From Escherichia phage pEC-N1203-2Af.1: a DNA stretch of 64,000 bases. The DNA lies in the sequence record OQ540978.1; one strand, given 5' to 3'. The position numbers were made by a program, and so were the translations under genes. Shown here in pieces: positions 3,713 to 14,777 of the stretch (position 1 is its first letter; every line of letters starts with the position of its first letter). The notes beneath the pieces were generated by a model. The model had not been told where the DNA came from, did not search any database, and worked only from the letters and a program-made list of their open reading frames with translations.

Positions 3713-6700
3713 TCACTCCTTAGGTCGAACTCTTACACGGAGTCTCGATTGACGCTTACTGCGTTCAAGCTTCTCTGACAATGAGCCACGTTTAATCTTC
3801 GGCTTCCCTTCGTCATTAAACTTCTCCAAGAACTTCAAGTACTCAGTACGATTCGTTGTCTTGTAAGAAGGAATCTTAATATCAGGGTTCTCTTCAATTA
3901 CACGTCTCATCTTCGCTACATCATCCCTACCAAGCAACTTACTCTTAGCCTGTTCAGCTGTAGAACCAAAGATCTTCTCCAATGCTCTAGATTTGTTACC
4001 ACCTGCGGAAGAAGCACCAAGTTTAGCAATAGCAGAGTAATCATCAGCACTAAACCAAGCTACCGGATTATCGCCATACTTCTTCTTGTTTTCAGCAGCA
4101 GTCTGCAATGCACGTACAAAGCGACGGTTGTTACCAGCCTTGTCTGCACCATGAACCCTGTCTAAAACTTCAGCCACACTAGCTAACTCGTCCAAGCTCT
4201 TCCCGCTTAAGAAAGCTTTCTCTACTTTATCAGCAAAGACTTCTTCCTGCTGTTTGATACTTTCCAAGATATCAGAATTTGCTTGAGATTTTTCATCGTC
4301 AGGCAGAGCAGAACGAATCTTCTCCATCTCCAACTCTTCCTCTTGCAGTTTCTTAATATCAGAGTCAACCTTCTGAGCCTCCTCAACAGCCTTCCTAGTA
4401 TCCGCATCCAAGTTATCAAGCTTACCTTCAGTATCTCCAGTAATCTTAACAATCTCTTTCTCGATAGGGGTCATTGATTCGTACTTCTTAGCAAACTTCT
4501 CAACATCAGCTTCGATACGAGAACGAGCATTCTGATGTTCAGTAGGAGTCATAGGCTTATCAAGAAGTGCATAACGGTTATCCATGTAGGAACCAGCAAA
4601 TGCTTCAGCATCCTCTTTAGATATGCCTTTATCTTCCAAAGTATGCATCAGGCGACGATGAATGTCGTCACGTTGACGTTGTACTGCCATGAGATCATTC
4701 TCACGCTTCTGAGCCGCTTTAAGCTCTTCACTGCGTTTAACTCTTTTGTCTATATCAAATTTACGGTCCATCTCTTCCGCTTGCTCATACATCTTATTCC
4801 ACTTAGCCTGACGAGCATCCTCCTCTGCGTCAGTTAAACGACGCTGACGATCAAGGTAATCTGACTCGGCGTTATGGATACGTTCAATGTAACTACGGAA
4901 CTTCTCTGGAGGAACTGGAGAGTTCTTATCGTGGTGAGCAGCCAACTGTTTCAATGTACGAGATTCCTGAGCCTCACGAACAGGTTTAGGTAAACCTTCC
5001 ATCATCTTCTCAATCTCACTCTTCTGAGCTGCAATAGCCTCTAGAGTTTTACGTTCATTCTCAACAGCAGCTTTAGCATCTGAACGAGCCTGTGCCCTAT
5101 TTCTCAGAGTAGCAAGACGTTCTTCACGAGCCTGCAAGTGTTTAGCAGCAGCTTCGTATTGAGAGTTCTTGTTAGCTTTGTTGAAGGCATTCACTTCTCT
5201 GTTATAAGTGTTAATAAACCCATCCCAAATATCCTTCATCTGACCAACTTCCAAAGCCTCTTCCCTACCAGCTTTCTCTGAAGATTTAAACTTCCCATCT
5301 ACAAAGTCATTCATCAGCCTACGCATAGCATCTTTCTGAGCAGGACGTAAAGGTTCAGAATCAATCAAAGTATCAATCTCAGACTGAAGCTCTTTCTTCT
5401 GGTCAACCAGTTTAGGAGCATCCTTCTTATCGAAAGCTTTGTTCTCTTCCAGAGCTTCTTGATACAGTCTATCAAACTCAGCCTCACGTTGCTTCTGGTA
5501 CAATCTTTCAGATCTACGTTTCAGGCTTTCCAAGTTAGTTACGTTCCCACCTAAACCACTCTCTTCAGCACGTAATGCCTTAGTAGCAATATCTTCTGGC
5601 AGACCACGTTCTTTAACCCATTCAGCAAACTCAGATCGTACAGCGTTGTTCTTAGCAGTAGCAATACCTTTCTGAGTAGCTCTCTGATTACGAGCCATTT
5701 CTTCATGACGTTCAGTATTGATAGCATTATCTTCCCGACGAATACGACGCATCAACTCCAAAGGATCGCCTTTGTAAGCTAAGAAGTTTTCAGCAGTAGC
5801 TTTAGCCTTAGCAGCATTAGAGTATAAGGATTTAGCAAAACGTGTTGCACGATCTTTAGCAACTTGACGAGCAGTGCTTGACATAGCAGCTAGGTACTCT
5901 ATACCGCTTTCCGGTTTAACCTCCTGTACTGCCTCCTCAGGAGCTTTAGGAGCACGAGCAGGTAATGGCTCAGCTTTGACTGTTGGTTCCTCTACGGTTG
6001 GTTCTGGAGCCTGTGCGGCCTCTTCTTGAGCACGTTGCTGTTCCATTGCACGACGTTCCTCTAAAGGATTACGAGCAGGGAGAGGTTCAGCCTGTGGAGA
6101 CTGTTCAACCGGAGCTTCTTGAGCAGCTGCCTCTTCTTCAGCACGACGCTGTTCAGCCTGACGAATAGCACGTCTTTGCGCAACTAAATCGCGAGCTGTA
6201 AGAGGAGCTTCTTGAGGAGCAGAAGAAGGAAGATTTTCTTCCGTCACAGTACTAGAAGAAGGCTCCCGAACCGGTTCGGTTTCCACGTCATTTTGCGTCT
6301 TAAATTTAATGTCATCAACAACTGGCTCTTCTTCCATTTTATCACGAGCTTCATCAACAGTAGACTTAGCACGAGCAACTTCCAAATCACCACGAGCCAG
6401 AGAGCGGATAGCTTCACTGTTGGATTCTTGTTGCTTAACACGTTGAGATCGAGCACGCTGAGAAGAGAAGCGATTCAGAGCATATTTAGCAGCACCAAGT
6501 GTGTTCATAACCAGACTAGGAGAAGAAGTCTCACGGAAGCCATCATCAGTCAGGGAAGTCCAACCACGGTCTTGATTGCTCATGAACTTAGCTGTGTTAT
6601 TCAGAGTATAAGCGTCTTGGATAGGATTAAAACCTTCAGGCATACCTTTCAGTTTCTTCAACCCACCAATAGCTTTCTTCATCTCTGGAGAAACATTCTC

Positions 6701-8131
6701 AGCCATCTTCTGTAGTTCAGCAGCTTTCTCTACAAAGTTATTAAAGTCTTCACCATCACGAGCTTTGAATCGATTTGCTTCATTATAGAAAGTCTTGTAA
6801 GCATCAATGAAGTCACGGTCAGCTTGTGTGCGATTCTTAACGTCAAGTGGACTACCGGTGAAGTGTCCAGATGCTCTAAGAGAAGTTAATTCACGGTCTA
6901 GGTTATCTAGAACATCTGTAAGAGCTTTCGTGTTATCCTTGGTGTAGTCAGCCATTGCATCTTTCATAGCAACTGCTTTCTTCTGGTTGTGCTCATTATC
7001 AGCGAATGCTTTACCACGAGTCTTAGCAGGAGAAGCCAAAGGATTGAGTCCCGGAATGTTAGAATGCTCTTTCTGAGCAGAAGCAGCTTTCTCAGCACGA
7101 GCTTGGTCTGTATTAAGAATACGCTGAGCAGCAGGAGAGTCTACAGCAACAGCATCAGTAATACGGAATCCATTCTCATCCAGAAGATTAAGAGCGGAAG
7201 CAGCGTTAGCAGTTTCAGCTTTAGAATAAGCTTCTTTCAGTTCATCAACATTCTTAGCACTTCGAATCAGTTCATCATCAGCAGCAATGTCAGTCTTTGC
7301 ATACTCTGGAGTATTCTTGAAGACAGCAGAATCTGGACGATTAATCAAACCATGAACGCCACCAACTGCACCACCGAATGCAGCACCCATAGCGCCTTCT
7401 TCAATAGCACCTTCTAAGACATTAGCAAAGGTTGTGTCATCACCATGTTTGTTCTGAGCTTCAGCAGCACCAACAAGAGCACCACCTTTAGCACCAGCCA
7501 CTGCGTTACTAGCAACGTTCTGACTGATACGACCAAGTGTAGACTCAGCTGTACCAACAGCACCCGGAAGGATTCTCTGAGCTGCATAGTTAGCACCACC
7601 AACTAGAGCGGCATCCAGAACAGACTTATCTTCTCCCTCTTCAGGAGTTTGGTCTGCATATGCACGACCTGTCTCACGACCTGCAATGATAGCAGCGGCA
7701 GCTAATGGGTTAGCAACAGTCAAACCAATATCACCAACAACGCCAGCATATTGCCCAGCAGTTTTACCAATCCCATCCTCAATCTTATCCATACGTTCTT
7801 TCAGAAGGTTCTGAGAGTTCTCTTGGATACGCTTTCCATAACTAGTTTGTGCTCCAGCTAGATTCTCACCAATCTCAACTAAACCACCAATACCTTTAGC
7901 AGCACTAGCTGCAATATTTGCACCACCAGATTGAAGAGCATTTGACACACCTTGAGCAAACTCACCTATAACACCACGTTCTTCTTGTTGTGGTTGTGCT
8001 ACTGGCTGTTCCTCAGGAATAGAGCCACCTGCTGCCTTATATTGTTCTCTCATTTGAGCTTGCTGCTCCGGAGAGGCATTCAGATACGCAGGAGCTTTGG
8101 AAGCTTCTTCCCACGGTTTAATGTTAGCCAT
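3713..8131 (-). CDS. Large internal virion / ejection protein (coiled-coil rich, 1472 aa)
   Basis: ORF 3713-8176; likely start is ATG at 8131 (MANIKPW) preceded by AAGGAG; Ala/Glu/Lys/Arg-rich coiled-coil composition; last gene of late operon. Confidence 0.55.
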   Translation of the reverse strand: MANIKPWEEASKAPAYLNASPEQQAQMREQYKAAGGSIPEEQPVAQPQQEERGVIGEFAQGVSNALQSGGANIAASAAKGIGGLVEIGENLAGAQTSYGKRIQENSQNLLKERMDKIEDGIGKTAGQYAGVVGDIGLTVANPLAAAAIIAGRETGRAYADQTPEEGEDKSVLDAALVGGANYAAQRILPGAVGTAESTLGRISQNVASNAVAGAKGGALVGAAEAQNKHGDDTTFANVLEGAIEEGAMGAAFGGAVGGVHGLINRPDSAVFKNTPEYAKTDIAADDELIRSAKNVDELKEAYSKAETANAASALNLLDENGFRITDAVAVDSPAAQRILNTDQARAEKAASAQKEHSNIPGLNPLASPAKTRGKAFADNEHNQKKAVAMKDAMADYTKDNTKALTDVLDNLDRELTSLRASGHFTGSPLDVKNRTQADRDFIDAYKTFYNEANRFKARDGEDFNNFVEKAAELQKMAENVSPEMKKAIGGLKKLKGMPEGFNPIQDAYTLNNTAKFMSNQDRGWTSLTDDGFRETSSPSLVMNTLGAAKYALNRFSSQRARSQRVKQQESNSEAIRSLARGDLEVARAKSTVDEARDKMEEEPVVDDIKFKTQNDVETEPVREPSSSTVTEENLPSSAPQEAPLTARDLVAQRRAIRQAEQRRAEEEAAAQEAPVEQSPQAEPLPARNPLEERRAMEQQRAQEEAAQAPEPTVEEPTVKAEPLPARAPKAPEEAVQEVKPESGIEYLAAMSSTARQVAKDRATRFAKSLYSNAAKAKATAENFLAYKGDPLELMRRIRREDNAINTERHEEMARNQRATQKGIATAKNNAVRSEFAEWVKERGLPEDIATKALRAEESGLGGNVTNLESLKRRSERLYQKQREAEFDRLYQEALEENKAFDKKDAPKLVDQKKELQSEIDTLIDSEPLRPAQKDAMRRLMNDFVDGKFKSSEKAGREEALEVGQMKDIWDGFINTYNREVNAFNKANKNSQYEAAAKHLQAREERLATLRNRAQARSDAKAAVENERKTLEAIAAQKSEIEKMMEGLPKPVREAQESRTLKQLAAHHDKNSPVPPEKFRSYIERIHNAESDYLDRQRRLTDAEEDARQAKWNKMYEQAEEMDRKFDIDKRVKRSEELKAAQKRENDLMAVQRQRDDIHRRLMHTLEDKGISKEDAEAFAGSYMDNRYALLDKPMTPTEHQNARSRIEADVEKFAKKYESMTPIEKEIVKITGDTEGKLDNLDADTRKAVEEAQKVDSDIKKLQEEELEMEKIRSALPDDEKSQANSDILESIKQQEEVFADKVEKAFLSGKSLDELASVAEVLDRVHGADKAGNNRRFVRALQTAAENKKKYGDNPVAWFSADDYSAIAKLGASSAGGNKSRALEKIFGSTAEQAKSKLLGRDDVAKMRRVIEENPDIKIPSYKTTNRTEYLKFLEKFNDEGKPKIKRGSLSEKLERSKRQSRLRVRVRPKE

Positions 8132-8169
8132 AACGTCTCCTTTTATAAATAAAAATGTCCTACCCCCTA

Positions 8170-8178
8170 TATACATTA
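8170..8178 (-). promoter_or_regulatory. TAATGTATA motif (candidate phage-sigma-dependent late promoter element)
   Basis: Minus-strand TAATGTATA about 38 nt upstream of ATG 8131; identical 9-mer upstream of gene 24947-25699. Confidence 0.4.
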
Positions 8179-8198: not shown

Positions 8199-9848
8199 TT
8201 ATTGCGTGAACCAGCTAGTGTCTTCGACAGCTGATAAAGCACCGTTCAGTTTAGGATTGGTTGCTGCACCACCAACATAATCTTCTGCTTCATCAGAGAA
8301 AACACCGAGAGGGTCATAGAAACCGCCAGAAGGAATTGCACGGTTAACCAATGCAGTAGCTCTCTTCTTATCCATACCAGAACCAACATAAGCGTTGATA
8401 GTATCTCTCTTAGCATCAGCAACACCTTTCATAGCAGAGGTATGACCGACGTTAGCCTGTTTACGAGCATAAGCAAGAGCAGAATCAGTAGGACGCCACC
8501 CAGACTTCAGAGCGAACTTGTTACCTACACGGATAAAGATTGATGGGTCTTCTGCAAAATGTCCCAAGTCTTCTTCAGTAAGAGAACGAGTAGAACCGAT
8601 TTCAGCCCTTGCGGAGTTCATGATAGCCTGCATGTAAGCAGAACGAGCCGTCTGGTAATCCTTGTCCTTAACAGCTTTATCAGCCAAGTCCAAGTCTTTA
8701 TTAGACTGGTTAAACAAGCCACCTTTCTCTGCCCACTGCTTAGCGATAGTACCTTCAGCCGTATTCTGAGCGTTACGAATTTCTTTCGTGGGGAAGTTGA
8801 AACTTTGAGCAACTTGTTCAGCACGTTCAGCCTTAACTTTATCACGATAGCCAATCAACTCTTTCTGACGTTCAAAGTTCATATCAGTTCTCTTTTCAGC
8901 AGCACGACGAGTTTCCTCGGCACGTTCACGCATAGCCTGCTCTTGAATCTGTTGACGTCTATCCCATTCAGCATTCTGACGTTCTTCACGAGCAGCATAC
9001 AGAGCTTCTTTCTGAGCAGGATCTACAGCTCTCATCTTCAGTAGAGATGGGTCTCCGTTAGCAATAGCAGCTGCGATCGAGTCTTGAGAGAAGCCTTGTT
9101 CAATCAGAGCATCACGGTTAGCTTCCAGTTGCTTCTTAGTCTCATCTTGATTAGCCATTCCCTGACCAATCTGGAAAGCTTCAATAGGAGACTTACCTGA
9201 CATAATGGAAAGACCTACACCCATCAAACCTGTGTAGAAACTAGAGTTCTGATAGAATGGTTCTTTCTGTAGCTTGTTCCAAGCTTCCGAAGGGTCTTTA
9301 GCTTTCGCAACTTGCAAGATATCGTTGTTAACACGTTCCTGATCTTTAGCACGAGTAGCAGCAGTCATTCCATCACCAGCGTCTTGTCCTTGAGCAAGAG
9401 TATTAATCACACCTTGTGCCTGTTCCACCTGAGAAGGAGTGAACTCCATAGGACCAGCTTCTAACGGTTTAGTAGGAGGTGTTACCGGAAGAGGTTCTGA
9501 TTCTGGAGGAATAGAAGAAGGAGAAAGTCCAGCAGCTTGCATGGTTTCTTGATTCTCAAACTCAGGAAGAGTTACAGCCTGTTGTGCCTGAGGTTGTACA
9601 TCATTTGGGATATCAGAAGGAAGGCCGTTACTCTGAACAGGATTCAACATATTCTGATAATCTACTGAAGTTTGACCTACAAGAGAGGAAAGCCCAGCAG
9701 GTATAGCAGGACGTTGATACATAGAAATATCTGCTGTCTGAGTAGGTCTAGCCATATAAGGAGAGGCCGAAGCCGCTCCCGGATTAACACCATAGAAAGT
9801 ATTTCTCGGGTCGCGACTTCTGACCTGAGCATAAGTTGTCTGTTGCAT
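8199..9848 (-). CDS. Internal virion / structural protein
   Basis: ORF 549 aa in late operon between Q/N-rich proteins and large coiled-coil protein; Pro/Gln-rich N-terminus. Confidence 0.45.
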   Translation of the reverse strand: MQQTTYAQVRSRDPRNTFYGVNPGAASASPYMARPTQTADISMYQRPAIPAGLSSLVGQTSVDYQNMLNPVQSNGLPSDIPNDVQPQAQQAVTLPEFENQETMQAAGLSPSSIPPESEPLPVTPPTKPLEAGPMEFTPSQVEQAQGVINTLAQGQDAGDGMTAATRAKDQERVNNDILQVAKAKDPSEAWNKLQKEPFYQNSSFYTGLMGVGLSIMSGKSPIEAFQIGQGMANQDETKKQLEANRDALIEQGFSQDSIAAAIANGDPSLLKMRAVDPAQKEALYAAREERQNAEWDRRQQIQEQAMRERAEETRRAAEKRTDMNFERQKELIGYRDKVKAERAEQVAQSFNFPTKEIRNAQNTAEGTIAKQWAEKGGLFNQSNKDLDLADKAVKDKDYQTARSAYMQAIMNSARAEIGSTRSLTEEDLGHFAEDPSIFIRVGNKFALKSGWRPTDSALAYARKQANVGHTSAMKGVADAKRDTINAYVGSGMDKKRATALVNRAIPSGGFYDPLGVFSDEAEDYVGGAATNPKLNGALSAVEDTSWFTQ

Positions 9849-9861
9849 ATTTATCTCCTAA

Positions 9862-10830
9862 TTAAGAACTAGCCATCCCGCCAATCACCCCTCCAGCCAA
9901 AGCACCCCAAGGACCAAAAGAAGAACCAGCTGCTGCACCACTCATAGCTCCACCTAAGAAGCCACCACCCCCACCAGATGTTTTAGTAGTTGTAGTTTGT
10001 CCGAGAGCGCCGTTAAGTACACCTGCTGCACCGAGTTGGTTATTGATATCTTGCCACCCCCAATTAGCTGCGTTCTGAGCATTCTGGTAGGCATTATCAT
10101 ATTCATTCTGCTGTTGCTGTTGTTGCTGCAACCCAGCCTTCCATTGGTTTAATATTTGCTGTTGAGATAAATCAGCACCTTGTTGACCTAAGTTGGAAAG
10201 GTTAGAACCAATAGTAGAAAGACCTGAGAGAGCAGCTGCCTGATTCTGTCTATTACCAGAGAGAATGCTTTCAGCTTGGTTGATAGCCGAGTTATAAGCA
10301 CTGTTGGTAATATCCGTTGCTTGACTTTGCATCTGATTCAGAGCATCACCTTGAGCAAAAGATTTAGCCATACGAGCACCTGAACCCTGCTGACCAGCAT
10401 ACTGTTGAGCCAACTGAGGAAGAGCATTACGTGCTAGGTTCTGTTGGACTTGTTCATTATTAGCTGTAATAGCTGCCTGAACAGCATCGTCATCATACAA
10501 TTGACCAGCAAGAGCACCAATCTGTTCTCCAGTAACTCCACCCTGTCCAGAGAGGCTCTGATAGCCTTTATAGGCATTATCCAGATAACCTAACCCCTGA
10601 CCTGCTGCATCCATGTATTGCTGCGAGAGAGTCCCTAAGGCACCAGATTGTGCCAAGTTGTTAAGAGCCTCTGTCTGGTTGTTATTAAACCCTACATTGT
10701 CACGATAAACATAATCCCCTGAACTAGTATTACCAATCTGTTGGTTAAGCTGGTCAATATACTGTTGAATGTATTCAGGGCGAATCATTTGGGAAGTAGT
10801 TTTACTATTCCCTCCTCTAAATAAAGCCAT
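9862..10830 (-). CDS. Q/N/G/A-rich low-complexity structural protein
   Basis: ORF 322 aa; poly-Q run, Gly/Ser-rich C-terminus; composition resembles neighbour 10843-11895. Confidence 0.45.
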   Translation of the reverse strand: MALFRGGNSKTTSQMIRPEYIQQYIDQLNQQIGNTSSGDYVYRDNVGFNNNQTEALNNLAQSGALGTLSQQYMDAAGQGLGYLDNAYKGYQSLSGQGGVTGEQIGALAGQLYDDDAVQAAITANNEQVQQNLARNALPQLAQQYAGQQGSGARMAKSFAQGDALNQMQSQATDITNSAYNSAINQAESILSGNRQNQAAALSGLSTIGSNLSNLGQQGADLSQQQILNQWKAGLQQQQQQQNEYDNAYQNAQNAANWGWQDINNQLGAAGVLNGALGQTTTTKTSGGGGGFLGGAMSGAAAGSSFGPWGALAGGVIGGMASS

Positions 10831-10842
10831 ATCAAATCTCCT

Positions 10843-11895
10843 TTAGTTTGCTCCGAATGCCCCTAAGACACCACCTAAGATATTATTACCCGTTGTGGAT
10901 AACCAGTTAGACTGGCCTTTCTGTTGAGAAAGATTAGAACCACCGATCATAGGACCAGCCATACCAGACTGCCCACCTGAGTTGTTATAGGAACTCCAAG
11001 CATTCTGGGTCTGTTGGTTAGGAGAGAAAGCACCCAAACGACCTGCAATACCCAAGCCAGTGATACCAGCACCTAGGAGCTGTTGTCCAGTATTGACTCC
11101 CGGAGCAGCATTCTTAATTGTGTATCCAGCCATCGGGCTTACACTGTTTAATACATTAAGTTGGTTGTTAAGCTGATTCCATCCATACTGCTGAGAGCCA
11201 ATAGCATTCTGCCAATTAATATCAGCTTGAGATTGAGCTTGTTGCTGTTGTAGATTACCAGCCATGAGTTGATTCTGGATAGCTTGTTGAGTTGCCTGAA
11301 CACCTTGCGCACCAAGATTGAGATTCTGTCCAGCTAAACCAGACTGAGCACCAAGCAAACCTCTCTGGAAGTTCTGGTCTTGTTGAAGAGCACTGATTCC
11401 CATGTTCTTACCATTGATGGTACGAGATAGGTTTGTATTAGCACCATTCAAAGCCGCCCCTTGAGCCGCAGCCCTACGGAGAGAGCCTGAATCAGAGCCA
11501 TTGCCAAGAGAAACATTAGAAGCTGCTTTGCTAGTAGCCTGAGCAAGAGCTGAGCTGTTTAAGCCTTTACTAAAGTTATTAACACCATCAGCAGTTAAAC
11601 CACCACCATTGACAATATTCTGGTACTGTTGGGCAAGAGAGTTCAATTGGTCTAAACCTTGCTGTGTACGAGGTGTGTACATATCAGCCAATTGCTTTTG
11701 AGTTGTAGAAGCTGCTAAGTTATTCAGAGCACCTTGTTGGTTGCCATTAAACCCAGCCAGCTGTTGGGAAATAAATCCCTGATCGTTGTTCTGCATATTC
11801 TGAGCATTAGCAACAATCTGCTTCAGCAGGGCATCAACCTGAGAGGAAGGAGCCACTGTGGTTTTGCTAGAAGCTGATTTTCCAAATAAAGACAT
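10843..11895 (-). CDS. Q/N/G/A-rich low-complexity structural protein (paralog-like)
   Basis: ORF 350 aa; same biased composition as 9862-10830. Confidence 0.45.
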   Translation of the reverse strand: MSLFGKSASSKTTVAPSSQVDALLKQIVANAQNMQNNDQGFISQQLAGFNGNQQGALNNLAASTTQKQLADMYTPRTQQGLDQLNSLAQQYQNIVNGGGLTADGVNNFSKGLNSSALAQATSKAASNVSLGNGSDSGSLRRAAAQGAALNGANTNLSRTINGKNMGISALQQDQNFQRGLLGAQSGLAGQNLNLGAQGVQATQQAIQNQLMAGNLQQQQAQSQADINWQNAIGSQQYGWNQLNNQLNVLNSVSPMAGYTIKNAAPGVNTGQQLLGAGITGLGIAGRLGAFSPNQQTQNAWSSYNNSGGQSGMAGPMIGGSNLSQQKGQSNWLSTTGNNILGGVLGAFGAN

Positions 11896-11914
11896 AAGTC
11901 CTCCTTAACGATTA

Positions 11915-12697
11915 TTACTTAACACCAATGCTAGCCAAACGTCTAAGCACTGCTTGTGTTTGTGGGCTGTACTGAGAACCTGCCGCATGTGGTGCACTCG
12001 CTCTCTGAACTGTTTGAGATGTAGGAGGTTTACCAGCAAGCATAGCAGCTACTCCTAATACTGCATTACCAAAGTTCTGTTGAGGCTTCTGATCTTCACC
12101 TTCCTGCACTTCATCAGAGTAAAACTCTACCGGATTACCACCTAAAGCACCTGTCTTAGAAGCAGCAATCTCTGCCTGAGTGGGAGCTTGTGCAGCCTTC
12201 TCTCTGTCTAACAAGTCAGGATTAAACTGATTGACTGGTTGAACAGCTTGCAAAGCTCCAATTGGGTTAGCAATCTGAGAAGCTGCATCGCCGTAAAAAG
12301 GAAGAAAGTGTTTGTTGTTCATTGAGTCAAGAGCCTGAGGAGTAAATCCTTTCTTACCAGCGAACATCTGCCTAGCACCACCGGTTCCTTCAGAGTAGCC
12401 GACCATTGCCTTCTTAACATCACCATTGAAAGCTTTTAAGTTATCTCTGATATAACGAGCACCCATGTCAATATTCTTTGCTGGGTCCAGTCTGTCTTCT
12501 AGTTTGTATCCATAGTCTTTAGCCAATCCTTTACTGATCTGCATTAAACCTACAGGACCAGTTCCAGAGGCTACTTTAGGACGTCCACTAGACTCTCTTT
12601 GGATTACAGCATGAATCAAAGCAGCAGGAATCCCATACTTCTTTGAAGCTTGCTGTACCATTGGGTCTAGTTCTTCGATACCCATTCTAATTGCCAT
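11915..12697 (-). CDS. Lytic transglycosylase (SLT domain) virion protein
   Basis: ORF 260 aa; ESSGRP...GPVGLMQI catalytic Glu-Ser and GLMQ motif of soluble lytic transglycosylases. Confidence 0.7.
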   Translation of the reverse strand: MAIRMGIEELDPMVQQASKKYGIPAALIHAVIQRESSGRPKVASGTGPVGLMQISKGLAKDYGYKLEDRLDPAKNIDMGARYIRDNLKAFNGDVKKAMVGYSEGTGGARQMFAGKKGFTPQALDSMNNKHFLPFYGDAASQIANPIGALQAVQPVNQFNPDLLDREKAAQAPTQAEIAASKTGALGGNPVEFYSDEVQEGEDQKPQQNFGNAVLGVAAMLAGKPPTSQTVQRASAPHAAGSQYSPQTQAVLRRLASIGVK

Positions 12698-12706
12698 AAT
12701 ATCTCC

Positions 12707-13741
12707 TTATTGTATACTCCTGAATATCTTTCTAGCATCTAATACTGGAATACTTAACCCGAGGGCACCACCCCCTCCTAAATCATATTGACTACTCCAA
12801 GAGTAAATCATCCTTCCGAAACCTGTACCGAAAGAAGAGCCATTCATCATGTGAGATCTTGTGTGTTGAAAATACCAACCACTAGCCTTACCTCTTATTG
12901 CTCCAGCACCATAAGATAGAGGTATCATTGGATAGGCCAAAGATGTGTTACCACCACTCATAGGCATAAATCCCTCAACACTAAAAGGGGTTCTATATGT
13001 AGAAAAAACACACTGAGACCCATTTGGAGAAAAGATATTTAAACCTCCATTGTGGGTTGGTACTCCAGAACCATCACAGAAGACGGCAATTCTAACACCA
13101 CCGATGGACCCTGTTTGGTTTGTGTTACCATTATCATGAGACCTGTTCTGGTACACATAAACAACCCTGTTGGATGGATTGTATAGTAGACCTGCTCCGC
13201 CGTTACTCCAATTCGCGTAGACAGTTGCTCGGCTCATATCAAAACCACCAATATCTGGTATTTGAAGAGCACCATGTATGTCACCCTCCCAAGCCCAAAT
13301 ACATTGACCAACAACTCCAGAATCAGAGATTGAGAAATAGTCAGCAGAGTTGGAGAATGTGATTCCATAGTTCCTATTAGCTCTAGGCCATATTTGATAT
13401 ACATTAAAAGCCATATCAAATACCCAACCGTTTACGTTATAGTCCATAGTAACTCTGAAGGTTGAGTTATTAATAACAGATATATCCGTTATCCAATACA
13501 CATCAGACGTTACATTAGGAGGTATGTATCTCTCCCAAACAACAGACCCTGTTGGGACTACAACTATCTGACCACTTCCATCCCAACCGCTTATAGGCAA
13601 GTCACAGGTATTTCCACTAAAAGAGAAATTCCCACTTACCCTATTTCTGAGTTGAGGGAAAGTGCTACCACTGTCAATGTAAATATCAGCAGGTGCCGCT
13701 GGACCCGGACCGACCGGGCTTGTCCATATTCCATATGCCAT
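12707..13741 (-). CDS. Hypothetical virion (tail-associated) protein
   Basis: ORF 344 aa, Gly/Ser/Asn-rich, in tail gene block. Confidence 0.4.
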   Translation of the reverse strand: MAYGIWTSPVGPGPAAPADIYIDSGSTFPQLRNRVSGNFSFSGNTCDLPISGWDGSGQIVVVPTGSVVWERYIPPNVTSDVYWITDISVINNSTFRVTMDYNVNGWVFDMAFNVYQIWPRANRNYGITFSNSADYFSISDSGVVGQCIWAWEGDIHGALQIPDIGGFDMSRATVYANWSNGGAGLLYNPSNRVVYVYQNRSHDNGNTNQTGSIGGVRIAVFCDGSGVPTHNGGLNIFSPNGSQCVFSTYRTPFSVEGFMPMSGGNTSLAYPMIPLSYGAGAIRGKASGWYFQHTRSHMMNGSSFGTGFGRMIYSWSSQYDLGGGGALGLSIPVLDARKIFRSIQ

Positions 13742-13742
13742 G

Positions 13743-14777
13743 TTACCAACTCCCTATTCTTATGCGAAGAGTTCCACTCCCATCATAAAAATCTATTCTA
13801 TTACCGTTCATCCATAACTGAGAACCGCCTGTACCACCCATAACAAAATCACCACCAACAGTAAGCCTCCAGTTAGAACCCCACATAGAACCAGCAGTAA
13901 TCTTATCCGCTGACAAGTTCTGAATTTGAGCGTTGGAAATAGATACGTTGTCTATCTGTGCCCATTGGATTCTGGCGTTGGCGATCTGAGCCGTTGTGAT
14001 GTTGACGTTCTTTATGTCAGCGAACTCCATCCTAGCTCTTCCACCCTCAAACACAAAAGGGGTATTACCAGAGCTGCCATCACCAACAATAAACTTGTTA
14101 GCTGTTACTTGGAATTGACTGTTTGTTCCGTTGTTAGTTAACTTGACCCCAGCATATCTTCCGTTGACTGTAGAGTTAACTCCCCATGTAGCTTCATACT
14201 CAGAAAGCTTCATATACTGAGATAGGCTTCCATTAATATTTTGAATCTCTGTCTGAACTAAAGCAATCTCTTGACCTTGGTCGTTAACAATCCCTTCTAC
14301 CGTTTGAATCTTAGTTGTGTTACCTTCAATACTTGTTTTAAAGCCAGATACAGTGCTTTCTAATTTTACAGGAGGTTGAACAGAATTATCCCAAATATCT
14401 TCAGTGGAGAGGTTCCCCATCTGTGTTATAATATCTGCAATAGCTGTCTCTATCTCTGTAGTAATTCTATTCTCAAGCTCATCAAATTGTAAGTTCATCG
14501 CATGAAGAGCTTTGATACGAACATCAATCTCATCATGAATCTCATCAATAGCTTGGAACATTTGGTTAGTAGCTGTACTAACTTTCTGTAGCTCGTCATA
14601 TACGGCTACGTTATATGTTTCTGTGTCCTGTACATTATTGAGAAACCCAACGTTGTACGGAAGTGTGGTGTTATTACGACCAGTGTTCTTACGAAAACCA
14701 CCTGCACCCATAAGTTCCTCCAAAACAATAAAAGGGGCACGAAGCCCCTTGTTGTTATCTCCGTCCGCCAACAGCAA
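13743..14777 (-). CDS. Tail fibre-like protein
   Basis: ORF 344 aa; N-terminal coiled coil, C-terminal repetitive NAQI/beta-rich segment typical of fibre tips. Confidence 0.4.
   Translation of the reverse strand: MLLADGDNNKGLRAPFIVLEELMGAGGFRKNTGRNNTTLPYNVGFLNNVQDTETYNVAVYDELQKVSTATNQMFQAIDEIHDEIDVRIKALHAMNLQFDELENRITTEIETAIADIITQMGNLSTEDIWDNSVQPPVKLESTVSGFKTSIEGNTTKIQTVEGIVNDQGQEIALVQTEIQNINGSLSQYMKLSEYEATWGVNSTVNGRYAGVKLTNNGTNSQFQVTANKFIVGDGSSGNTPFVFEGGRARMEFADIKNVNITTAQIANARIQWAQIDNVSISNAQIQNLSADKITAGSMWGSNWRLTVGGDFVMGGTGGSQLWMNGNRIDFYDGSGTLRIRIGSW

What the first reader, a model, noticed from the sequence alone, without database searches (positions are those of the whole stretch)
9862..11895. 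Two adjacent Q/N-rich, prion-like low-complexity virion proteins
Both proteins are dominated by Gln, Asn, Gly, Ala and Ser with poly-Q runs, and lie between the transglycosylase and the large internal proteins. Such composition is unusual for structural proteins and may reflect disordered proteins packaged in the capsid and ejected into the cell.
Basis: seen in the sequence. Interest (0 to 1): 0.4.

Follow-up and report, generated by a model that had tools for sequence, protein, structure and literature searches.

The report
Paralogous Q/N-rich phage DNA-ejection proteins
These two neighbouring genes encode the already known gp21 and gp22 ejection proteins of a phiEco32/SU10-like E. coli phage: glutamine/asparagine-rich helical proteins with glycine-rich membrane tails that are packed in the head, shot out at infection, and probably form the outer-membrane part of the DNA channel, so the odd composition is real but ordinary for this protein class.

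Summary
Two minus-strand ORFs, 10843-11895 (350 aa) and 9862-10830 (322 aa), have 27% and 25% Q+N, against 9.4±3.0% for the 41 other ORFs in the window. QNGAS makes up about 62% and charged residues only 7-9%.

The window is a Kuravirus, 96-97% identical in nucleotides to phages SDYTW1-F1-2-2_3, 172-1 and NJ01. The two proteins are 95% identical to SU10 gp21 and gp22. Those were detected in virions by mass spectrometry and are absent from genome-release intermediates, so packaging and ejection are already established for the orthologues.

"Prion-like" and "disordered" are not supported. The proteins are old tandem paralogues under strong purifying selection (dN/dS 0.06-0.14). Q/N columns are as conserved as other columns, the models are helical and proline is scarce. 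Poly-Q runs are not conserved and do not come from DNA repeats.

Each protein ends in glycine-zipper hydrophobic arms. The 322-aa protein is a remote homologue of LUZ24 gp53 (Pa223 gp56, a proposed outer-membrane channel). It shares composition and the C-terminal ...GSSxPWGAxxGGxIG... hairpin motif with P22 gp7, which forms a Q/N-hydrogen-bonded dodecameric outer-membrane channel.

Most likely these are gp7-like outer-membrane channel subunits. Already known kind, low interest.

The parts
10843..11895 (-). Gene A: 350-aa ejection protein, orthologue of SU10 gp21 (35.9 kDa)
   Evidence: ORF. phrog_4287 'DNA ejection protein', E 3.7e-117. 95.4% aa identity to SU10 gp21, dN/dS 0.058. AF2 helices at residues 18-252.
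9862..10830 (-). Gene B: 322-aa ejection protein, orthologue of SU10 gp22 (33.4 kDa); tandem paralogue of A
   Evidence: ORF. phrog_4287, E 4e-107. A vs B BLASTP gives 31% identity over 271 aa, E 1e-12. 95.7% identity to SU10 gp22, dN/dS 0.060.
11146..11385 (-). A residues 171-250: densest Q/N stretch (35 Q/N in 80 aa), inside the long predicted helix 137-252; contains conserved motif WQNAxGxQQxxWNQLNNQLNVLN
   Evidence: invariant N208, Q217, N230, W239, N244.
10009..10248 (-). B residues 195-274: densest Q/N stretch (31 Q/N in 80 aa), inside predicted helix 194-275; includes the Q7 run (10108-10128)
   Evidence: The Q run is not conserved among homologues.
11026..11085 (-). A residues 271-290, QQLLGAGITGLGIAGRLGAF: first glycine-zipper hydrophobic arm (highest hydropathy in the protein)
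   Evidence: KD19 maximum 1.26 at residue 273. Nearly invariant in the family.
10846..10881 (-). A residues 339-350, ILGGVLGAFGAN: second glycine-zipper arm, separated from the first by a roughly 48-aa Q/N/S/G loop
9865..9975 (-). B residues 286-322, GGGGGFLGGAMSGAAAGSSFGPWGALAGGVIGGMASS: consecutive GxxxG glycine zipper forming two arms around a GSSFGPWG turn; same motif as the outer-membrane V-hairpin of P22 gp7 (…LIGSSTPWGAAIGGGIGLLGSLF)
   Evidence: GxxxGxxxG hits at residues 286, 290, 294, 298 and 309. This is the most conserved part of the family. Alignment to the P22 gp7 and LUZ24 gp53 C-termini. The role of the gp7 hairpin comes from bioRxiv 10.64898/2026.09.03.749273.
11900..11906 (-). 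Shine-Dalgarno AAGGAGG of gene A, 4 nt upstream of the ATG
10838..10843 (-). Shine-Dalgarno AAGGAG of gene B, overlapping the stop codon of A
11915..12697 (-). Neighbour: SLT lytic transglycosylase, orthologue of ejection protein SU10 gp20
   Evidence: Pfam SLT, E 1.7e-24. phrog_12507..
8199..9848 (-). Neighbour: 549-aa protein, orthologue of ejection protein SU10 gp23; candidate periplasmic-tunnel subunit by position and size only
   Evidence: phrog_12130.. No detectable similarity to LUZ24 gp51.
3713..8131 (-). Neighbour: roughly 1472-aa protein, orthologue of ejection protein SU10 gp24 (163 kDa); the real start is probably at 8131 rather than 8176
   Evidence: The phrog_14629 match starts at residue 16. 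SU10 gp24 is 1473 aa.

Best explanation
The two genes are ancient tandem paralogues encoding the gp21 and gp22 ejection (E) proteins of a Kuravirus.

Shown for orthologues that are 95% identical: both proteins are packaged inside the prolate head and leave it when the genome is released.

Inferred: each protein is a bundle of long Q/N-rich alpha-helices followed by a C-terminal pair of glycine-zipper hydrophobic arms. After the tail needle is lost, they exit through the nozzle and oligomerise. Their many conserved Gln/Asn side chains make inter-subunit hydrogen-bond networks, as in the P22 gp7* dodecamer. The glycine-zipper arms insert into the outer membrane.

Together they would form the nozzle-proximal, outer-membrane segment of the trans-envelope DNA channel. 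That channel is then completed by gp23 and gp24, while gp20 (SLT) cuts the peptidoglycan.

On this reading, the Q/N/G/A/S-rich, charge-poor composition is an adaptation to two needs. The proteins must travel unfolded or extended through a narrow tail channel, and they must then refold into a polar-zipper helical barrel with a membrane anchor. It is not a prion-like or permanently disordered state.
For: Identity and packaging
- The region is 96-97% identical in nucleotides to Kuravirus genomes.
- A and B are orthologues of SU10 gp21 and gp22, with the same gene order gp18-gp24.
- Both were detected by MS in SU10 preparations (PMC4281155). gp20-24 are lost in the genome-release intermediate (PMC9509320).
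- Both match phrog_4287 'DNA ejection protein' at E 1e-117 and 1e-107.

Structured rather than low-complexity
- dN/dS is 0.06-0.14.
- Q/N-majority columns have majority frequency 0.59-0.62, against 0.60-0.67 for all columns, and there are invariant Q, N and W positions.
- AF2 secondary structure is helical over residues 18-252 (A) and 19-275 (B).
- Both fall on the ordered side of the charge-hydropathy plot and have low proline.

Membrane anchor
- The glycine-zipper arms are the most hydrophobic and most conserved segments.

Link to channel-forming E proteins
- LUZ24 gp53 hits phrog_4287 at E 2e-10, and B-type homologues hit the LUZ24 gp53 family phrog_7477.
- The B-family HMM finds gp53 as the only significant ORF in LUZ24+T7+P22 six-frame translations, E 1.3e-5.
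- Smith-Waterman z is 12.1, or 4.9 with local-composition-preserving shuffles.
- LUZ24 gp53 has the same length and gene order as Pa223 gp56. That protein is MS-confirmed in virions and proposed as the outer-membrane channel (bioRxiv 10.1101/2025.06.11.659172).
- P22 gp7 shares the composition (QNGAS 57.6%) and the C-terminal GSSxPWGAxxGGxIG hairpin.
- hhalign between the B family and the gp7 family gives probability 75%, E 2.4e-5 over 53 co-linear N-terminal columns.
- In situ cryo-EM shows gp7* as a dodecameric 24-helix bundle held by Q/N hydrogen bonds. Its V-shaped C-terminal hairpin sits in the outer membrane (bioRxiv 10.64898/2026.09.03.749273).

Fusions
- The same roughly 300-aa module is fused N-terminally to peptidoglycan hydrolase domains in 900-2000-aa relatives. 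This fits an envelope-penetration role.
Against: - No structure exists for this family. There are no PDB sequence hits for A, B or the family profile, even at E 10.
- AF2 confidence is low (pLDDT 54 and 38). The helical model is therefore weak, and Foldseek gave nothing significant.
- The P22 gp7 Pfam family PF25688 is not hit by A or B.
- The gp7 link is only suggestive: block-shuffle z is 2.3, with 12 of 500 shuffles reaching the score.
- Protein A by itself shows no significant similarity to gp7 or LUZ24 gp53.
- The outer-membrane assignment of Pa223 gp56 is itself a bioinformatic proposal.
- Amphipathic helical periodicity is only moderate and is absent in A residues 137-252.
- 7-11-type homologues carry a Peptidase_S74 trimerisation chaperone, which does not fit a dodecamer easily.
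- SU10 cryo-EM did not resolve any ejection-protein density.
Confidence: 0.6

Rival explanations
1. One reading: prion-like, intrinsically disordered Q/N-rich proteins. They would act through composition alone, for example as space-filling, condensate-forming or amyloid-like material in the capsid, and be ejected without adopting a defined fold.
For: - 35 and 31 Q/N residues in the best 80-aa windows.
- Very low charge.
- AF2 pLDDT below 50 for all of B and for A residues 252-350.
- No ordered density for ejection proteins in the SU10 head.
Against: - Strong purifying selection and position-specific conservation of Q/N residues.
- Helical secondary structure in all models.
- Low proline, about 18% aliphatic residues, and the ordered side of the charge-hydropathy plot.
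- Q runs are not conserved.
- Conserved glycine-zipper membrane-type tails.
- The compositionally similar P22 gp7 is fully ordered in its functional state.
Confidence: 0.08
2. They are ejection proteins, but build a different part of the channel. That could be the periplasmic tunnel or the inner-membrane pore, or each paralogue could anchor in a different membrane (A in one, B in the other), rather than both forming the outer-membrane segment.
For: - Five ejection proteins must share out the roles.
- A and B differ in pI (9.9 vs 4.3) and in tail architecture: A has a 48-aa loop between its arms.
- Only B resembles gp7 and LUZ24 gp53 significantly.
- Glycine zippers are not specific to either membrane (general knowledge).
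Against: - The gene order needle - (SLT) - A - B - 549 aa - 1472 aa parallels P22 gp26 - gp14 - gp7 - gp20 - gp16 and Pa223 gp58 - gp56 - gp54 - gp53. In those phages the small glycine-rich protein is the outer-membrane component and the larger downstream proteins span the periplasm and inner membrane.
- A and B are homologous over their whole length, including both arms.
Confidence: 0.2
3. They are trimeric coiled-coil fibre or plug proteins, for example an internal needle extension or a portal/nozzle plug, rather than channel-wall subunits.
For: - Single-copy homologues in 7-11/GAP52/Privateer-type phages, and some large fusion proteins, carry a Peptidase_S74 intramolecular chaperone, which is typical of trimeric fibres. 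The hits are E 6e-4 for 7-11 gp20 (bit score 20.5, just under the 22-bit Pfam cutoff) and E 2e-9 for P0096.
- Long uninterrupted helices are predicted.
- SU10 shows unassigned density in the portal barrel.
Against: - The Kuravirus A and B proteins lack the S74 domain and carry glycine-zipper arms instead.
- They are lost on genome release.
- The homology and motif links point to channel formers.
Confidence: 0.1

Closest known systems
Escherichia phage SU10 gp21 and gp22 (also phiEco32, 172-1 and NJ01 orthologues; RefSeq 'DNA ejection protein'; PHROG 4287)
   Same: Orthologues: 95.4% and 95.7% aa identity, the same lengths (350 and 322 aa), masses and gene order. They are experimentally virion-associated and absent after genome release.
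   Different: Nothing of substance. There are a few percent of substitutions, mostly synonymous at the DNA level.
Bruynoghevirus LUZ24 gp53 / Pa223 gp56 (PHROG 7477), proposed T7-gp14-like outer-membrane channel subunit
   Same: - Similar size (313 aa), Q/N/G/A/S-rich, with a C-terminal poly-Gly followed by a glycine zipper.
- Virion protein encoded just after the tail needle and before a roughly 500-aa and a roughly 1000-aa ejection protein.
- Remote homology to B is supported by cross-PHROG hits, an HMM hit and shuffle statistics.
   Different: - Single copy in Bruynogheviruses, not a tandem pair.
- It has about 23 extra N-terminal residues.
- Only about 27% identity over the core.
- Protein A alone is not significantly similar.
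- The neighbouring gp23 and gp24 show no detectable similarity to LUZ24 gp51 and gp50.
Salmonella phage P22 gp7 (Pfam PF25688 P22_gp7), E protein forming the extracellular/outer-membrane channel
   Same: - Composition: QNGAS 57.6%, DEKR 10.5%.
- All-helical, with Q/N side chains making the inter-subunit hydrogen-bond network.
- C-terminal two-arm glycine-rich hairpin with a GSSxPWG turn.
- Encoded after the needle gene and before larger E proteins.
- Partial profile-profile match, probability 75%.
   Different: - gp7 is shorter (229 aa).
- The PF25688 HMM does not hit A or B.
- Pairwise similarity is marginal once local composition is controlled.
- gp7 is N-terminally processed by host OpdA, which is unknown here.
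- P22 uses one gene in two conformers, while Kuravirus has two genes.
T7 gp14 / DEV (N4-like) gp73 outer-membrane pore subunits
   Same: Same proposed role: a small, helical, capsid-packaged protein that forms the outer-membrane pore of the ejectosome.
   Different: - No detectable sequence similarity. Smith-Waterman z is about 0 against T7 gp14 and the family profile has no PDB hits.
- They are roughly half the size.
- T7 gp14 is much less Q/N-rich (13%) and more charged (20%).

Membership tests
Kuravirus gp21/gp22 'DNA ejection protein' family (PHROG 4287) | Full-length profile match | tested here: met
   phrog_4287 E 3.7e-117 (A, residues 1-350) and 4e-107 (B, residues 1-310). 95% identity to SU10 gp21 and gp22.
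Kuravirus gp21/gp22 'DNA ejection protein' family (PHROG 4287) | Position in the late operon: needle - DUF6453 - SLT - gp21 - gp22 - gp23 - gp24 | tested here: met
   Same order and sizes as in SU10, 172-1 and KBNP1711. The cassette is also conserved at 27-43% identity in L008.
Podophage ejection (E / internal virion) proteins | Present in purified virions | not testable with these tools
   Literature only, for 95%-identical orthologues: SU10 MS coverage 53% (gp21) and 49% (gp22), PMC4281155. That preparation was PEG-concentrated and not CsCl-purified. The later cryo-EM study also lists gp20-24 in virions.
Podophage ejection (E / internal virion) proteins | Released from the capsid on genome ejection | not testable with these tools
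   Literature: gp20-24 are absent from the SU10 genome-release intermediate, PMC9509320. The supplementary table could not be read as text.
Podophage ejection (E / internal virion) proteins | Membrane-insertion segment | tested here: met
   Conserved glycine-zipper hydrophobic arms at A 271-290 and 339-350, and B 286-322. This is a prediction only.
P22 gp7 family (Pfam PF25688) | Match to the family HMM above the gathering score | tested here: not met
   No Pfam hit for A or B at E <= 0.1, whereas P22 gp7 scores 428 bits.
P22 gp7 family (Pfam PF25688) | Profile-profile or pairwise similarity beyond composition | tested here: inconclusive
   - hhalign B family vs gp7 family: probability 75%, E 2.4e-5, 53 columns.
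- A family vs gp7 family: probability 1%.
- Smith-Waterman B vs gp7: z 4.4 with full shuffles, z 2.3 with block shuffles.
P22 gp7 family (Pfam PF25688) | C-terminal V-shaped two-arm hydrophobic hairpin that sits in the outer membrane | tested here: inconclusive
   The motif is shared: B has AAAGSSFGPWGALAGGVIGG and gp7 has KLIGSSTPWGAAIGGGIGLLG. The structure and location are known only for gp7.
LUZ24 gp53 / Pa223 gp56 family (PHROG 7477) | Detectable homology | tested here: met
   For B:
- gp53 hits phrog_4287 at E 2e-10.
- B-type relatives hit phrog_7477 at E 3e-7 and 1e-5.
- A2 HMM E 1.3e-5.
- Block-shuffle z 4.9, with 0 of 500 shuffles reaching the score.

For A alone the similarity is not significant.
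T7 gp14-type outer-membrane pore proteins | Sequence similarity | tested here: not met
   Smith-Waterman z 0.1 (B) and -0.7 (A) with full shuffles. No PDB hits with the family profile.
Prion-like / Q/N-rich domains | Compositional criterion (at least 30 Q/N in 80 residues) | tested here: met
   35 (A, residues 171-250) and 31 (B, residues 195-274).
Prion-like / Q/N-rich domains | Intrinsic disorder with composition-driven (not position-specific) conservation | tested here: not met
   - dN/dS 0.06-0.14.
- Q/N columns are as conserved as average columns.
- Helical models.
- Ordered side of the charge-hydropathy plot and proline 0.9-1.7%.
- Caveat: AF2 pLDDT is low, so disorder of the isolated monomer is not excluded.
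Prion-like / Q/N-rich domains | Self-propagating amyloid formation | not testable with these tools
   Needs experiments such as ThT, SDD-AGE or Sup35-fusion assays.

The most novel reading that the evidence does not exclude
The ancient gp21/gp22 duplication hard-wires into two genes what P22 achieves with two conformers of one protein (gp7-o and gp7-i). The paralogues would alternate as a 6+6 hetero-dodecamer, or a similar hetero-oligomer, that matches the C6 nozzle. One paralogue (B) would provide a compact outer-membrane hairpin. The other (A) would provide a hairpin split by a 48-residue Q/N/S/G loop that reaches further, for example into the periplasm or towards gp23. If so, the Q/N-rich helices would be a general 'polar-zipper' solution, shared by P22-like, LUZ24-like and phiEco32-like podophages, for proteins that must pass unfolded through the tail and self-assemble outside the cell.
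Probability: 0.2. Interest if true: 0.5.

Novelty: already known. Interest (0 to 1): 0.2.

Why it matters
For the scan, this is a correctly spotted but ordinary feature. The genes are annotated 'DNA ejection protein' in RefSeq, and their orthologues were shown to be packaged and ejected in SU10.

The work here adds modest value:
- The two proteins are ancient paralogues.
- They link by remote homology to the Bruynoghevirus gp53/gp56 protein.
- They link by motif, composition and architecture to P22 gp7, for which a structure-based mechanism now exists.

This gives a concrete, testable assignment for two of the five SU10 ejection proteins, whose individual roles are still unresolved. It also cautions against reading Q/N-richness in phage internal proteins as prion-likeness.

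Tried and rejected
- PDB sequence searches with A, B, the A-family profile and gp23 found nothing, even at E 1-10.
- Pfam and NCBIfam gave no family for A or B.
- AF2 monomer models had low confidence: pLDDT 54 with a 35-sequence alignment and 38 with a 39-sequence alignment. Only their secondary structure was used.
- Foldseek against the PDB with the A model gave only generic long-helix matches at E >= 0.5, such as chemoreceptors, SMC and alpha-pore-forming toxins. I treat these as meaningless.
- hhalign of the A-family profile against the single LUZ24 gp53 sequence failed. The link was recovered with PHROG profiles, the B-family HMM and shuffle tests.
- BLASTP of gp23 and gp24 against LUZ24 gp51 and gp50 found no similarity. 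The outer-membrane channel / periplasmic tunnel / inner-membrane complex mapping of the neighbours therefore rests on order and size only.
- I considered a DNA-level repeat origin for the low complexity and rejected it. There is only one weak 9-bp repeat, and the Q7 run uses mixed CAA/CAG codons.
- The hydrophobic-moment periodicity test gave mixed results: z 2.4-2.6 in two of the four segments tested (A 18-121 and B 151-275), weaker in B 19-135 (z 1.3), and none in A 137-252.
- Searching the SU10 supplementary files for gp21/gp22 returned nothing readable.
Full report
**1. What is in the sequence**

The finding's coordinates coincide exactly with two complete ORFs on the minus strand. A is 10843..11895 (350 aa) and B is 9862..10830 (322 aa). 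They are packed tightly into an operon, with 19-nt, 12-nt and 13-nt gaps to their neighbours. Each is preceded by a strong Shine-Dalgarno site.

The compositional claim holds:
- A has Q 14.6, G 13.7, N 12.6, A 12.3 and S 9.7%.
- B has Q 15.2, G 14.6, A 13.7, N 9.6 and S 8.1%.
- Q+N+G+A+S is about 62% in both, and charged residues are only 6.6% and 9.3%.

Against 41 other ORFs of at least 120 aa in the same window, Q+N (27.1% and 24.8% vs 9.4±3.0%) is 5-6 standard deviations out. The densest 80-residue windows contain 35 and 31 Q/N residues. That exceeds the 30-per-80 threshold I recall for Q/N-rich domains (from memory).

The poly-Q runs are short: Q4 in A, and Q3 and Q7 in B. The Q7 run uses mixed CAG/CAA codons, and Tandem Repeats Finder reports only one weak 9-bp repeat. 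The bias is therefore not a product of DNA repeat expansion.

**2. What the locus is**

The 2-kb region is 96-97% identical to Escherichia phages SDYTW1-F1-2-2_3, 172-1 and NJ01, and 92-94% identical to many other phiEco32-like phages. These belong to genus Kuravirus, subfamily Gordonclarkvirinae.

In RefSeq both genes are annotated 'DNA ejection protein'. Both match PHROG 4287 'DNA ejection protein' over their full length, at E 4e-117 and 4e-107.

The gene order is tail needle (gp18), DUF6453 protein (gp19), SLT transglycosylase (gp20), A (gp21), B (gp22), a 549-aa protein (gp23) and a roughly 1472-aa protein (gp24). This is identical to phage SU10. A and B are 95.4% and 95.7% identical to SU10 gp21 and gp22. 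The calculated masses of 35.9 and 33.4 kDa match the SU10 proteomics table.

**3. What is already known experimentally**

- In SU10, gp21 (53% coverage, 11 peptides) and gp22 (49% coverage, 5 peptides) were detected by mass spectrometry in phage preparations (PMC4281155).
[quoted passage not shown] It therefore calls them ejection proteins.
- No ordered density could be assigned to these proteins inside the head. They are proposed to extend the nozzle into a trans-envelope channel (PMC9509320).

The individual roles of gp21 and gp22 have not been determined.

**4. Are they prion-like or disordered?** The evidence says the composition is real but the inference is not supported.

- (a) A and B are paralogues: 31% identity over 271 residues, E 1e-12. 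They share the same N-terminal motif (M-x-LF-G-x-x-x-KTT...P), the same core motifs and the same C-terminal arms. Both types are found side by side in relatives down to about 40% identity. One example is an E. coli chromosomal contig carrying the whole SLT-A-B-498aa-1113aa cassette. The duplication is therefore old and both copies have been kept.
- (b) Purifying selection is strong. dN/dS is 0.058 and 0.060 against SU10, and 0.092 and 0.139 against KBNP1711. This lies within the range of the neighbouring structural genes.
- (c) Columns whose majority residue is Q or N are as conserved (0.59-0.62) as the average column (0.60-0.67). Several Q, N and W positions are invariant.
- (d) High Q+N content is family-wide (21-29% in all members). 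Q runs are not: most members have runs of only 2-4.
- (e) AF2 models have low confidence (pLDDT 54 and 38). Even so, they are consistently long alpha-helices over residues 18-252 (A) and 19-275 (B).
- (f) Proline is 0.9-1.7%, aliphatic residues are 17-19%, and both proteins lie on the ordered side of the charge-hydropathy boundary.

Low pLDDT could reflect a metastable monomer whose real fold is oligomeric, as is typical of ejection proteins. Disorder of the packaged form is therefore not excluded.

**5. The C-terminal tails**

The most hydrophobic and most conserved segments are glycine-zipper-like.
- In A, QQLLGAGITGLGIAGRLGAF (271-290) and ILGGVLGAFGAN (339-350) are separated by a 48-residue Q/N/S/G loop.
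- In B, there is a continuous run of GxxxG repeats: GGGGGFLGGAMSGAAAGSSFGPWGALAGGVIGGMASS (286-322).

**6. Distant relatives**

An exhaustive profile search found 352 cluster representatives at E <= 1e-3.

Many are 900-2000-aa proteins that carry this roughly 300-aa module at the N-terminus. It is followed by Hydrolase_2 (SleB-like), SLT or Phage_lysozyme2 domains. One such relative in the phage database is annotated 'internal virion protein D'. This supports an envelope-penetration role.

The other prolate podophages (7-11, GAP52, Privateer and several Aeromonas phages) have a single roughly 400-aa copy. Its C-terminus resembles a Peptidase_S74 intramolecular chaperone.

LUZ24 gp53 is a 313-aa 'phage particle protein' located after the needle and before 505-aa and 1055-aa virion proteins. 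It is a remote homologue of B, on four lines of evidence:
- it hits PHROG 4287 at E 2e-10;
- B-type proteins hit its family, PHROG 7477;
- the B-family HMM picks it as the only significant ORF among all six-frame ORFs of LUZ24, T7 and P22, at E 1.3e-5;
- the Smith-Waterman score is 12 SD above full shuffles and 4.9 SD above shuffles that preserve local composition.

Its counterpart in Pa223 is gp56, with the same length and the same flanking 505-aa and 1055-aa proteins. Pa223 gp56 is MS-confirmed in virions and was proposed as the T7-gp14-like outer-membrane channel. Transmembrane segments are predicted exactly in the glycine-rich tail (bioRxiv 10.1101/2025.06.11.659172).

**7. P22 gp7**

P22 gp7 has the same unusual composition (QNGAS 57.6%, DEKR 10.5%). 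Its C-terminus reads AIGGGASGAIAGAGLAKLIGSSTPWGAAIGGGIGLLGSLF, which mirrors B's tail including the GSSxPWG turn.

Statistically the link is only suggestive:
- hhalign of the B family against a gp7-family alignment gives 75% probability, E 2.4e-5, over 53 co-linear N-terminal columns;
- Smith-Waterman z is 4.4, falling to 2.3 with block shuffles;
- the Pfam P22_gp7 model does not hit A or B.

A 2026 in situ cryo-EM preprint describes gp7* in action. It forms a dodecamer docked on the hexameric tail hub in two alternating conformers. The dodecamer is a 24-helix bundle stabilised by an extensive network of Gln/Asn hydrogen bonds. The V-shaped C-terminal hairpin of each subunit is embedded in the outer membrane together with gp20 helices (bioRxiv 10.64898/2026.09.03.749273).

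This gives a concrete mechanistic reason why such proteins are Q/N-rich and end in glycine-rich hydrophobic arms. T7 gp14 shows no sequence similarity to A or B.

**8. Most likely mechanism**

Shown, by orthology and literature: gp21 and gp22 are packaged in the head and are lost on genome release.

Inferred: after needle release they pass through the nozzle and oligomerise into a helical barrel zipped by conserved Q/N side chains. They insert their glycine-zipper arms into the outer membrane. This forms the nozzle-proximal part of the channel. gp23 and gp24 then extend it across the periplasm and inner membrane, while gp20 digests the peptidoglycan.

I put about 0.9 on 'ejection proteins' and about 0.6 on the gp7-like outer-membrane channel role.

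Rivals:
- a different segment of the channel, or different membranes for A and B (0.2);
- a trimeric fibre or plug, suggested by the S74 domain in 7-11-type homologues (0.1);
- a truly prion-like or disordered function (0.08).

**9. Novelty and score**

The proteins, their annotation and their virion/ejection status are already known. The new points here are secondary: ancient paralogy, a homology link to LUZ24 gp53/Pa223 gp56, the gp7-like tail motif, and fusions to cell-wall hydrolases.

The most novel reading not excluded is that the two paralogues form an obligate alternating hetero-oligomer. This would replace the two conformers of P22 gp7 at the C12/C6 mismatch. I give it a probability of about 0.2.

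Interest is 0.2.

Noticed in passing
window 3713-8176 and 13743-14777 (minus strand): The mechanical ORF starts are probably too far upstream. PHROG matches begin at residue 16 of the 1487-aa ORF and at residue 23 of the TTG-started 344-aa ORF, and the SU10 orthologues are 1473 and 322 aa. The likely true starts are at 8131 (gp24) and 14711 (gp18 tail needle).
   Followed up: partly
L008 1-20969 (E. coli assembly GCA_023211535.1, contig DAHCAP010000002.1, 204-225 kb of 389 kb): A chromosomal-size E. coli contig carries SU10-type major capsid, terminase and portal genes. It also carries the same five-gene ejection cassette (SLT, 334-aa A-type, 322-aa B-type, 498 aa, 1113 aa) at 27-43% identity. 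This could be a prophage or integrated relative of the otherwise strictly lytic Kuravirus lineage, or an assembly artefact. B homologues are also named from Enterobacter chromosomes.
   Followed up: partly
proteins P0094, P0096, P0100, P0107, P0113, P0165 (metagenomic): The roughly 300-aa gp21/gp22 module occurs at the N-terminus of 900-2000-aa proteins. In some of them (P0096, P0113, P0165) Pfam detects a cell-wall hydrolase domain downstream (Hydrolase_2/SleB, SLT or Phage_lysozyme2). This is a fused 'channel subunit plus lysin' architecture reminiscent of T7 gp16-type internal virion protein D.
   Followed up: partly
L007 8947-10185 (Salmonella phage 7-11 gp20) and P0076, P0096: 7-11 gp20 has a C-terminal Peptidase_S74 intramolecular-chaperone domain (trimer-folding, autoproteolytic) where Kuravirus proteins have the second glycine-zipper arm. 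The Pfam hit is E 6e-4, just under the cutoff. The large fusion protein P0096 has the same domain at E 2e-9. P0076 gave no Pfam hit; its tail only looks similar by eye. 7-11 has a single copy of the gene, whereas Kuravirus has two. How a trimerisation chaperone fits a multi-subunit channel is unexplained.
   Followed up: partly
window 12707-13741 (gp19, DUF6453 'membrane protein'): This gene is only 62% identical to SU10 gp19 but 95% identical to KBNP1711 gp19. Its neighbours show the opposite pattern: 95-98% to SU10 and 80-89% to KBNP1711. This points to a mosaic exchange of this single gene between genera.
   Followed up: no
window 10843-11895 and 9862-10830, N-termini; LUZ24 gp53 residues 24-41: A short N-terminal motif, (G)GxxKTT(S/V)xxxP, is conserved between both paralogues, LUZ24 gp53 and the large fusion proteins. 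P22 gp7 loses its first 20 residues to host OpdA. Whether this motif is a processing, packaging or docking signal is unknown.
   Followed up: no
window 9862-11895: The paralogues have very different predicted pI (A 9.9, B 4.3) despite similar composition. This would fit a hetero-oligomer with complementary charge.
   Followed up: no
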